Source: the human T2T-CHM13v2.0 reference genome, Homo sapiens. Taken from it: a stretch of 64,000 nt of DNA. Within the stretch, counting starts at the first letter, position 1. The number at the start of each line of letters is the position of its first letter. Shown one piece after another: positions 39,717 to 40,768 of the stretch. A program made the position numbers and the translations under genes. The notes under the pieces are model-generated. The model saw nothing but the letters and a program-made list of their open reading frames with translations, was not told the DNA's origin and did not search any database. The stretch lies in the NCBI RefSeq assembly GCF_009914755.1, contig NC_060929.1. One strand, written 5' to 3'.

Positions 39717-40768
39717 GGTTTTTGGCTTCTTTCTTAATTGGTATGTTTACTTAAAAATATAGACTAATGGGCTGGGCATGGTGACTTACACCTATAATCC
39801 CAGCACTTTGGGAGGCCAAGGCGGGTGGATCATGAGGTCAGGAGATCGAGACCATCCTGGCTAAAACAGTGAAACCCCATCTCTACTAAAAGTACAAAAA
39901 ATTAGCCGGGTGTGGTGGTGGGCACCTGTAGTCCCAGCTACTCGGGAGGCTGAGGCAGGAGAATGGCGTGAACCTGGGAAGCAGAGCTTGCAGTGAGCCG
40001 AGATTGTGCCACTGCACTCCAGCCTGGGCGACAGAGCAAGACTCCATCTCAAAAATAAATAAATAAATAAATAAAATAATAAAATAAAATATAGACTAAT
40101 GATCCTGTGCTTCAATGTCATTGTGGTTATGTGCTGATGTCCATAAAACATAAGTTATAAGGGACTCTTCACAAATACACTCCAGACAGAAGGGTAAACA
40201 GAAATGACTGACAAGACAGTGCCATTTCAGACATACTTCCCTTAATTATTAATACTTGCTAGAAAATGGAGTTTGACATTATTTACAATTATACCAATAT
40301 TCACAGAGGCCAACTGTCACAGGCATTAAGGGCACACCAGGGCCAGGAGACCTCATTTCAGACTTCCCAAATATTTTTATATTTTAGCTATTAAGATCAG
40401 TTACCAGAGCTCAACTTGTTCTTAACAAGCAGAATTTTTATGTCCATTCAAAGAGTCTCTTATACCTTTCTGGGCCTATTTACTTGCAGAGAACAGTAGA
40501 AACTGTAACCAGGCTCTTCATATCATGCATTCACATGTGATGTCCAATCTTCATATGCTGTCCAATTTCTTTAAGATAAATGGAGTGACTCGCAGCAGGG
40601 CCACGTAGATGAGAAAGTTCTGTATGGAGATCATATCCTCGTGCATCTTCCGTTTCATCTCCGTGAGGTCCAGCTTCCGGGCAAGGCCCCCAATCCGGAA
40701 GATCAGCTGCCTCGCTCTGCTCTCCCTAATGGCCCCCTTACACCCGGAACTCGGCCTATCCCCTCGCC
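39717..40768 (-). pseudogene. TOMM5 processed pseudogene (CDS-equivalent 40703-40551), interrupted by an AluY at about 39770-40085
   Basis: Minus-strand translation is [50 protein letters not shown]. Recalled TOMM5 is [51 protein letters not shown]. It is intronless with an A-rich tail remnant and a gctaatttt TSD. Confidence 0.93.

What the first reader, a model, noticed from the sequence alone, without database searches (positions are those of the whole stretch)
39717..40768. TOMM5 retrocopy embedded sense-wise in the SERF1 long 3' region, between SERF1 and the SMN promoter
Seen: an intronless TOMM5 copy with leader, CDS, long 3' sequence and degenerate A tail. It lies on the same strand as SERF1 and SMN and begins about 0.8 kb after the long-isoform stop. 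It split an older Alu at its linker (left arm about 40771-40910, right arm about 39550-39716; TSD gctaatttt). An AluY then inserted into it (16-bp TSD AAAATATAGACTAATG at 39754-39769 and 40086-40101). Inference: it supplies the 3' end of the long SERF1 mRNA through variant signals (TATAAA at about 40376-40381, or the AT-rich stretch near 40242-40253). It would be co-duplicated or deleted with SMN copy number, could compete for TOMM5 3'UTR regulators, and could confound TOMM5 probes and reads. I do not know whether it is annotated.
Basis: partly seen in the sequence, partly recalled or inferred. Interest (0 to 1): 0.8.

Follow-up and report, generated by a model that had tools for sequence, protein, structure and literature searches.

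The report
TOMM5 pseudogene ends SERF1 long mRNA
A dead, intron-less copy of the mitochondrial gene TOMM5 sits in the last exon of the long SERF1 transcript next to SMN and appears to supply that transcript's tail and end point; this is an ordinary kind of event and a minor detail of the locus.

Summary
Window 40770-39717 (- strand) is a full-length processed TOMM5 pseudogene.

- **Origin:** it matches the two exons of the chr9 parent gene, joined exactly at the splice junction (about 90% identity).
- **Ends:** it stops at the parental distal poly(A) site, followed by a 13-nt degenerate A tail and a 9-bp target-site duplication.
- **Setting:** it split an older Alu at its linker. A later Alu with a perfect 16-bp duplication interrupts it.
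- **Coding state:** the start codon is lost (ATG to ATC), one codon is deleted and 8 residues are changed.

The supplied RefSeq table ends SERF1B NM_022978.3 at 40220, which is 551 nt inside the retrocopy. No AATAAA or ATTAAA lies on that strand from the SERF1B stop codon to 39500. An AATAAT lies 25-30 nt upstream of 40220, and the sequence downstream is U/GU-rich, not A-rich.

That AT-rich motif is the ancestral TOMM5 state, which the parent gene later lost by a 7-nt deletion.

RefSeq's protein-coding model LOC107986372 looks like an artefact. The claims about regulator competition and read confusion are untested or weak. No transcript data could be examined. This is a new example of a known kind and of low interest.

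The parts
40086..40770 (-). TOMM5 processed pseudogene, proximal part. It holds the 5'UTR (with a 22-23-nt deletion), the degenerate coding region and most of the 3'UTR.
   Evidence: Searches show homology to chr9 TOMM5 exons 1 and 2 joined at the exact splice junction. BLAST pieces were 48/58, 106/122 and 472/536 identical.
40551..40703 (-). Remnant of the TOM5 reading frame. The former ATG is now ATC (40703-40701), one Ser codon is deleted, 8 residues are changed and the stop codon is kept.
   Evidence: (E=1.1e-19 to PDB 7ck6_I) and the nucleotide alignment.
39717..39753 (-). TOMM5 pseudogene, distal part. The parental distal AATAAA is changed to AAGTAAA (AGTAAA at 39751-39746). Parental homology ends at 39730, followed by a 13-nt degenerate A tail (39729-39717).
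39770..40085 (+). Later Alu insertion, sense on the + strand and therefore antisense to SERF1B. It lies downstream of the annotated SERF1B mRNA end.
   Evidence: D1. It keeps 7 CpG. The subfamily was not determined.
40086..40101 (.). 16-bp target-site duplication of the later Alu. The second copy is at 39754-39769.
   Evidence: D5 shows 16/16 identity. The parent mRNA has this stretch once.
40772..40780 (-). 9-bp target-site duplication of the retrocopy (AAAATTAGC on the - strand). The second copy is at 39708-39716.
   Evidence: (D6).
40781..40910 (-). Left arm of the older Alu that the retrocopy split. It is sense to SERF1B and lies inside the SERF1B 3'UTR.
   Evidence: In one search the left piece maps to positions 6-137 of a reference Alu.
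39545..39707 (-). Right arm and A tail of the same older Alu, now downstream of the retrocopy.
   Evidence: In one search the right piece maps to positions 140-267. The excised join aligns without a break.
40245..40250 (-). AATAAT hexamer inside an AT-rich stretch, 25-30 nt upstream of the annotated SERF1B 3' end. It is the likely poly(A) signal.
   Evidence: for the position. One search shows the motif is the ancestral TOMM5 state, which the parent later lost by a 7-nt deletion.
40220..40220 (-). Annotated 3' end of SERF1B NM_022978.3. It is the A of a CA dinucleotide, followed by U/GU-rich sequence. The XM model ends at 40225.
   Evidence: The annotation table supplied with the finding, and the sequence context.
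40376..40383 (-). AATATAAA, the parental proximal TOMM5 poly(A) signal carried along in the retrocopy.
   Evidence: Retrocopies on C1, C6 (second copy) and C14 end at parent mRNA 426-431 with A tails.
40220..41809 (-). SERF1B long-isoform terminal exon (as annotated). Its last 551 nt are TOMM5-derived.
   Evidence: The annotation table, with coordinates compared.

Best explanation
This is a full-length processed pseudogene of TOMM5. LINE-1 machinery copied it from the distal-poly(A) TOMM5 mRNA into the linker of an Alu, tens of millions of years ago. It landed downstream of, and sense to, a repeat-derived alternative last exon of SERF1.

The copy is non-coding. Its role is structural: it provides the last roughly 550 nt of the 3'UTR and the cleavage/polyadenylation site of the long SERF1A/SERF1B mRNA. 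Transcripts that splice into exon 3 meet no canonical signal in the repeat-derived sequence upstream. They read into the TOMM5-derived 3'UTR and are cleaved at a CA 25-30 nt after an AATAAT in an AT-rich stretch, ahead of a U/GU-rich tract.

That AT-rich stretch is the ancestral TOMM5 sequence. The parent gene has since lost 7 nt of it.

Shown here: the origin, structure, order of insertions and disablement of the copy; the position of the annotated mRNA end inside it; and the absence of canonical signals.

Inferred: that the AATAAT stretch is the signal actually used, that 40220 is the main end in cells, and the age of the copy.
For: Retrocopy hallmarks:
- an exact exon-exon junction;
- an end at the parental distal site, 17 nt after the parental AATAAA;
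- a degenerate A tail and a 9-bp duplication;
- a host Alu that becomes contiguous again after in-silico excision.

The parent on chr9 encodes the 51-aa TOM5, identical to the PDB chain shown.

Disablement: the ATG is now ATC, one codon is deleted and there are 8 replacements against 3 synonymous changes.

The mRNA end:
- The supplied annotation ends SERF1B exon 3 at 40220 and the XM model at 40225.
- One search found 0 AATAAA and 0 ATTAAA on the - strand across 41595-39500.
- AATAAT lies at 40250.
- The sequence after 40220 is CTGTCTTGTCAGTCATTTCTG..., not A-rich, so an internal-priming artefact is unlikely.

Ancestral motif: of the 6 sequences covering the site, the three older copies (C11, C6a, C7) and this copy carry the long AT-rich form. 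The parent and the younger C2 copy carry the 7-nt-shorter form.

Age: K2P distance is 0.102 and non-CpG difference is 0.069 over 687 aligned nt. Differences polarised by older copies split 18 on the parent lineage, 17 on this copy and 34 ambiguous.

Both SMN-locus copies carry it, with 2 differences in 3501 nt and none inside the retrocopy.
Against: - The only evidence that transcripts end at 40220 is the RefSeq table. I saw no cDNA, 3'-end-sequencing or long-read data.
- AATAAT is a weak variant signal. I recall it from published hexamer lists but did not check this. It also occurs at 40283 and 40925, where no end is annotated.
- Other variant hexamers lie in and around the retrocopy: TATAAA at 40381, AGTAAA at 40484 and 39751, CATAAA at 40442. 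Real ends may therefore be heterogeneous.
- No other TOMM5 retrocopy ends at the equivalent position (parent mRNA about 558). There is therefore no sign that TOMM5 itself ever used this site.
- Whether the long SERF1 isoform has any function is unknown. Its C-terminal coding part is itself an old interspersed repeat.
Confidence: 0.8

Rival explanations
1. The annotated end at 40220 is a minor or unrepresentative end. Long SERF1 transcripts mostly stop elsewhere: at the carried-over parental proximal site (about 40360, after AATATAAA), or past the later Alu at the decayed distal signal (AGTAAA at 39751). They would still end inside the retrocopy, but by a different signal.
For: TATAAA/AATATA at 40383-40376 is a proven TOMM5 signal, because 3 of 8 other retrocopies end just after it with A tails. 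It is intact in this copy. AGTAAA at 39751 is a commoner variant than AATAAT (recalled, not checked).
Against: Two RefSeq models end at 40220 and 40225 (supplied table). The context there has a CA, a U/GU-rich downstream tract and no genomic A run.
Confidence: 0.15
2. The retrocopy is an independent protein-coding gene, as RefSeq model XM_054353963.1 (LOC107986372) predicts. It would make an 83-aa TOM5-like tail-anchored protein from an ATG in the Alu left arm, spliced over a 113-nt intron.
For: The frame is open for 83 codons under that model. The C-terminal 22 residues, the membrane segment, are identical to TOM5, with 1 change in the last 69 nt.
Against: - The native start codon is lost and the N-terminal half has 8 replacements and a deleted codon.
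- The proposed start lies in Alu sequence.
- The last 25 nt before the proposed acceptor are 44% pyrimidine, and the last 17 nt read A-rich.
- The 8:3 ratio of replacement to synonymous changes is what neutral decay gives.
- The 69 conserved nt have no CpG. Because the parent is constrained there, only about half the 6.9% non-CpG divergence applies. About 2.4 changes are expected and 1 is observed, which is not significant (my calculation).
- The model lies wholly inside the SERF1B 3'UTR.
Confidence: 0.04
3. The embedded TOMM5 3'UTR acts as a decoy. It would compete for microRNAs or RNA-binding proteins that regulate TOMM5, with a dose that follows SMN-locus copy number.
For: About 550 nt of TOMM5-derived UTR lie in a transcribed exon, with exact runs shared with the parent of 48, 41, 29, 26 and 26 nt.
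Against: There is no expression or binding-site data. TOMM5 is a housekeeping mRNA likely to outnumber the long SERF1 isoform by far (inference). Roughly half the polarised differences arose on the parent side, which suggests little constraint on this UTR.
Confidence: 0.03

Closest known systems
LINE-1-mediated processed pseudogenes (retrocopies) of housekeeping genes
   Same: It is intron-less with an exact exon junction. It ends at a parental poly(A) site and has an A tail and a target-site duplication starting in an A run. It lies on a different chromosome from the parent and its reading frame is disabled. At least 8 other TOMM5 retrocopies exist in this genome.
   Different: Nothing differs in kind. 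Its position inside another gene's terminal exon is less common.
Nested genes, retrocopies and transposable elements that give host genes alternative polyadenylation sites or terminal exons (Kaer et al. 2011, as cited in PMC7290577; passages read)
   Same: An inserted sequence lying sense to the host carries the signals at which the host transcript ends.
   Different: The site used is not either of the two parental sites documented by other retrocopies. It is an internal AT-rich stretch that the parent gene has since partly deleted. This case did not appear in the papers I searched.
RefSeq LOC107986372 'mitochondrial import receptor subunit TOM5 homolog' (predicted model XM_054353963.1)
   Same: It is the same DNA. 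The annotation already recognises the TOM5 similarity.
   Different: RefSeq calls it protein-coding with an Alu-derived first exon. The sequence reads as a pseudogene embedded in the SERF1B 3'UTR.

Membership tests
Processed pseudogene (LINE-1-mediated retrocopy) | Homology to the spliced parental mRNA, with introns missing exactly at exon junctions | tested here: met
   The 3.5-kb chr9 intron is absent and the junction GAGTCA|CTCCATTT is exact.
Processed pseudogene (LINE-1-mediated retrocopy) | 3' end at a parental poly(A) site, followed by an A tail | tested here: met
   Homology stops 17 nt after the parental AATAAA. The 13-nt tail is degenerate. Three other retrocopies (C11, C2, C7) end at the same parental position and carry A-rich sequence after it.
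Processed pseudogene (LINE-1-mediated retrocopy) | Flanking target-site duplication | tested here: met
   D6 shows a 9-bp exact core. One search shows the host Alu is contiguous once the insert and one copy are removed.
Processed pseudogene (LINE-1-mediated retrocopy) | Disabled reading frame or neutral pattern of change | tested here: met
   The start ATG is now ATC, one codon is deleted, and there are 8 replacement against 3 synonymous changes.
Functional TOM5 protein-coding gene | Intact 51-codon frame with its own start codon | tested here: not met
   The start codon is lost. The longest ATG-started frame is 35 aa.
Functional TOM5 protein-coding gene | Evidence of translation or purifying selection | tested here: inconclusive
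   The membrane segment has 1 change in 69 nt, which is not significant by my calculation. No translation data were available.
Insertion-derived host-gene polyadenylation site | The host mRNA 3' end maps inside the inserted element, in sense orientation | tested here: met
   The annotated end at 40220 (supplied table) lies within 40770-40086. This rests on the annotation only.
Insertion-derived host-gene polyadenylation site | Signal hexamer 10-35 nt upstream and a U/GU-rich downstream element | tested here: met
   The hexamer is a variant only (AATAAT at 40250-40245). No canonical hexamer lies anywhere in 41595-39500.
Insertion-derived host-gene polyadenylation site | Direct evidence of cleavage at the site (3'-end sequencing, long reads, ESTs) | not testable with these tools
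   No transcript data are held.
The element keeps 7 CpG and has a perfect 16-bp duplication.

The most novel reading that the evidence does not exclude
The pseudogene may preserve a regulatory piece of the ancestral TOMM5 3'UTR, an AT-rich AATAAT stretch that TOMM5 itself later deleted. This 'fossil' would now be the working terminator of a primate-specific SERF1 isoform. Together with the roughly 140-bp inverted-Alu hairpin immediately upstream in the same 3'UTR, it would control nuclear retention, editing or stability of SERF1-long. That would make the output of a candidate spinal muscular atrophy modifier gene depend on retroelement-derived sequence that is duplicated or deleted along with SMN.
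Probability: 0.12. Interest if true: 0.45.

Novelty: new member of a known kind. Interest (0 to 1): 0.22.

Why it matters
SERF1A lies next to SMN1 and is discussed as a copy-number modifier of spinal muscular atrophy (PMC11508272, passages read). SERF1a also promotes amyloid formation (PMC5306383, passage read).

It helps to know that the long isoform's terminal exon is a mosaic of mobile-element sequence: an old interspersed repeat, two antisense Alus, half a sense Alu and a TOMM5 pseudogene. It also helps to know that its annotated end lies in the pseudogene. Three practical points follow:
- **Function:** the long isoform is probably a young, primate-only product of doubtful function.
- **Annotation:** RefSeq's protein-coding call for LOC107986372 should probably be a pseudogene.
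- **Reagents:** short probes, primers or siRNAs designed in the TOMM5 coding region or 3'UTR could cross-react with SERF1-long, since exact runs reach 48 nt.

Beyond that, it is a routine example of a retrocopy supplying a host gene's 3' end.

Tried and rejected
1. Insertion versus deletion. I first read the 7 extra nt upstream of 40220 as an insertion in the retrocopy that created a new signal. Comparison with other TOMM5 retrocopies reversed this. The older copies share the long form, so the parent suffered a deletion.

2. Selection on the membrane segment. There is 1 change in 69 nt. I rejected this as evidence of selection, because the stretch has no CpG and the parent is constrained there.

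3. Protein-coding reading (RefSeq XM model). Rejected: the start codon is lost, the proposed start lies in an Alu, and an A-rich tract precedes the acceptor.

4. Rfam scan of 39400-41900 gave 0 matches at gathering score.

6. Literature searches:
- 'TOMM5' with 'SERF1A' found 1 paper, an unrelated co-mention judged from its title and abstract.
- 'TOMM5 pseudogene' found 0.
- 'TOMM5' with 'retrocop' found 0.
- 'LOC107986372' found 0.
- 'SERF1A' with 'polyadenylation' found 9 papers. I read passages of two; neither concerns the SERF1 3' end. The other seven I judged from titles and abstracts in the listing.
- The 'H4F5'/'SMN'/'isoform' search listed 10 of 11 papers, which I did not open.

7. Published retrocopy catalogues:
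- PMC7290577: its one supplementary file has no SERF1A, SERF1B or TOMM5 entries.
- PMC4558860: supplementary file 2 has 4 TOMM5 rows, of which I saw 2 (chr1 and chr11).
- Phrase searches for a chr5 row failed, but so did the control phrase for chr1, so that negative is void.
- A search on coordinate prefixes recalled for hg19 found no chr5 row.
- File 1 was not searchable.
- Whether this copy is catalogued therefore remains open.

8. Not attempted: Alu subfamily typing (no consensus available) and presence or absence in other primates (only this genome is held).

Full report
**What is there**

On the - strand, which is the strand of SERF1B and SMN2, the sequence reads as follows:
- the left arm of an Alu, ending in its A-rich linker;
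- about 10 nt of uncertain origin;
- TOMM5-like sequence from 40761 down to 40086;
- a 316-bp Alu in the opposite orientation (40085-39770);
- 37 more nt of TOMM5-like sequence and tail (39753-39717);
- the right arm of the first Alu.

**Parent gene**

I searched the window's own genome with 40102-40768(-) and got 16 matches.
- Two were identical copies on chr5: this one and an inverted paralogue at C5:71374774-71375440.
- Two were pieces on chr9, 3.5 kb apart. Query 184-667 matched at 88% and query 8-183 at 76%.
- The rest were dispersed copies on chr1, 2, 6 (two loci), 7, 11, 14 and 17, at 73-89% identity.

The chr9 pieces are the two exons of a gene. Spliced in silico, its product is 51 aa, identical to the human TOM5 chain 7ck6_I as printed. 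The window's own frame matches that chain at E=1.1e-19.

**Retrocopy hallmarks**

- **Junction:** parent exon 1 ends ...GAGTCA followed by GTGAGT, and exon 2 starts after TTTCAG with CTCCATTT. The window reads straight across as GAGTCACTCCATTT.
- **3' end:** homology ends 17 nt after the parental AATAAA, where the parent continues with unrelated sequence. The window has a 13-nt degenerate A tail there.
- **Shared end:** three other retrocopies (C11, C2, C7) end at the same parental position and carry A-rich sequence after it. This is therefore the distal TOMM5 poly(A) site.
- **Target-site duplication:** a 9-bp repeat flanks the insert (D6).
- **Host Alu:** I removed the insert and one repeat copy in silico. 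The host Alu then aligned without a break to positions 6-267 of another Alu, with the left piece at 6-137 and the right piece at 140-267.
- **Later Alu:** it has a perfect 16-bp duplication (D5) of a stretch that the parent mRNA carries once.

**Coding state**

The start ATG is now ATC. One Ser codon is deleted. Eight residues differ, all in the N-terminal 29, against 3 synonymous changes.

The last 69 nt of the frame have one change. That stretch lacks CpG and the parent is constrained there. About 2.4 changes would be expected, so this is not evidence of selection (my calculation).

The longest ATG-started frame is 35 aa.

RefSeq's model reaches 83 aa only by starting in the Alu left arm and removing a 113-nt intron. 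The last 25 nt before its acceptor are 44% pyrimidine, and the last 17 nt read A-rich. I read this model as an artefact of protein-guided gene prediction.

**Age**

- Over 687 aligned nt there are 65 substitutions (39 transitions, 26 transversions), giving a K2P distance of 0.102.
- At non-CpG sites 44 of 634 differ.
- I used three more diverged, hence older, copies to polarise the differences. Of these, 18 fall on the parent lineage, 17 on this copy and 34 are ambiguous. CpG decay can bias this split.
- That gives about 3.5-5% change per lineage. With primate neutral rates recalled as roughly 1-2 x 10^-9 per site per year, the age is some tens of millions of years. This is an inference, not a measurement.

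**Relation to SERF1B**

The supplied table ends NM_022978.3 exon 3 at 40220 and the XM model at 40225. The last 551 of the exon's 1590 nt are therefore TOMM5-derived.

A hexamer scan of the - strand from 41595 to 39500 gave the following:
- no AATAAA and no ATTAAA anywhere;
- upstream of the retrocopy, TTTAAA (41446, 40932), AATAAT (40925), ACTAAA (40792) and AATACA (40786);
- inside the retrocopy, AGTAAA (40484), CATAAA (40442), AATATA/TATAAA (40383/40381), AATAAT (40283, 40250) and AGTAAA (39751).

The AATAAT at 40250-40245 lies 25-30 nt before 40220. Position 40220 is the A of a CA dinucleotide. The next 30 nt are U/GU-rich and not A-rich, so internal priming is unlikely.

I recall AAUAAU from published lists of variant signals, but did not check this.

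**The two parental sites and the 7-nt difference**

Retrocopies on C1, C6 (second locus) and C14 end at parent mRNA 426-431 with A tails, about 17-20 nt after AATATAAA. It is not the one matching the annotated SERF1B end, which corresponds to parent mRNA position about 558.

At that place this copy has 7 nt more than the parent. Six sequences cover the site. This copy and the older C11, C6a and C7 copies have the long AT-rich form (C7 further disrupted by an insertion). The parent and the younger C2 copy have the short form.

The pseudogene therefore keeps the ancestral state and the parent lost it. C2 also shares the parent state at 5 of 6 parent-lineage changes that it covers.

**Both SMN-locus copies**

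Window 39000-42500 differs from the paralogous stretch by one substitution (39250) and one 1-nt gap (40962) in 3501 nt. Neither lies in the retrocopy.

**Side claims**

The longest exact runs shared with the parent are 48, 41, 29, 26 and 26 nt. Reads of 100 nt or more should map correctly, but short probes or primers might cross-react. Competition for regulators was not testable.

**Literature**

None of my four searches specific to this retrocopy found a description of it.

The general phenomenon is in print. Nested genes and retrocopies can provide alternative polyadenylation signals to their hosts (PMC7290577, passages read, citing Kaer et al. 2011).

Retrocopy catalogue supplements were inconclusive for this locus.

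**Verdict**

- The mechanism is a known one.
- The annotation as a protein-coding gene is doubtful.
- Interest is low.

Noticed in passing
window 41509-41875 (- strand): The coding part of the SERF1B long-isoform exon 3 (41593-41809) and its splice acceptor lie inside an old interspersed repeat. A genome search found 3427 candidates. Apart from the two chr5 self-matches, the 40 scored matches were 72-81% identical, on many chromosomes. The C-terminal 72 aa of the 110-aa isoform are therefore repeat-derived. With the Alus and the TOMM5 copy, nearly the whole terminal exon comes from mobile elements.
   Followed up: partly
window 40771-41083 (- strand): Inside the annotated SERF1B 3'UTR, an antisense Alu and the sense left arm of the split Alu form a near-perfect hairpin of roughly 140 bp with a loop of about 40 nt. 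The MFE is -256.9 kcal/mol against a shuffle mean of -149.3, z = -15, with 0 of 100 shuffles as stable. I recall that inverted Alu pairs in 3'UTRs are substrates for A-to-I editing and nuclear retention. I did not check this.
   Followed up: partly
L009 (chr9 parent), around parent mRNA position 540: The functional TOMM5 3'UTR lost 7 nt of an AT-rich stretch after this retrocopy formed and before the chr2 retrocopy formed. About half of the polarised parent/retrocopy differences are on the parent side. Much of the TOMM5 3'UTR therefore seems to evolve nearly neutrally.
   Followed up: partly
L006 (chr1), L007 (chr6), L013 (chr14) versus L004 (chr11), L011 (chr2), L012 (chr7): TOMM5 retrocopies record two parental poly(A) sites. 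Three copies end at mRNA 426-431 and four (counting this one) at 721. At least 8 other TOMM5 retrocopies exist in this genome.
   Followed up: partly
window 40886-40915 and 40551-40772: RefSeq predicted gene LOC107986372 is called protein-coding, but it needs an Alu-derived start codon and an intron with an A-rich tract before its acceptor. It should probably be reclassified as a processed pseudogene.
   Followed up: yes
L005 (chr6) and L012 (chr7), at the equivalent of window about 40230-40250: Two other TOMM5 retrocopies have independent insertions of about 120-300 bp in or beside the same AT-rich stretch. The chr7 insertion reads Alu-like. The stretch may be a favoured LINE-1 endonuclease target.
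   Followed up: no
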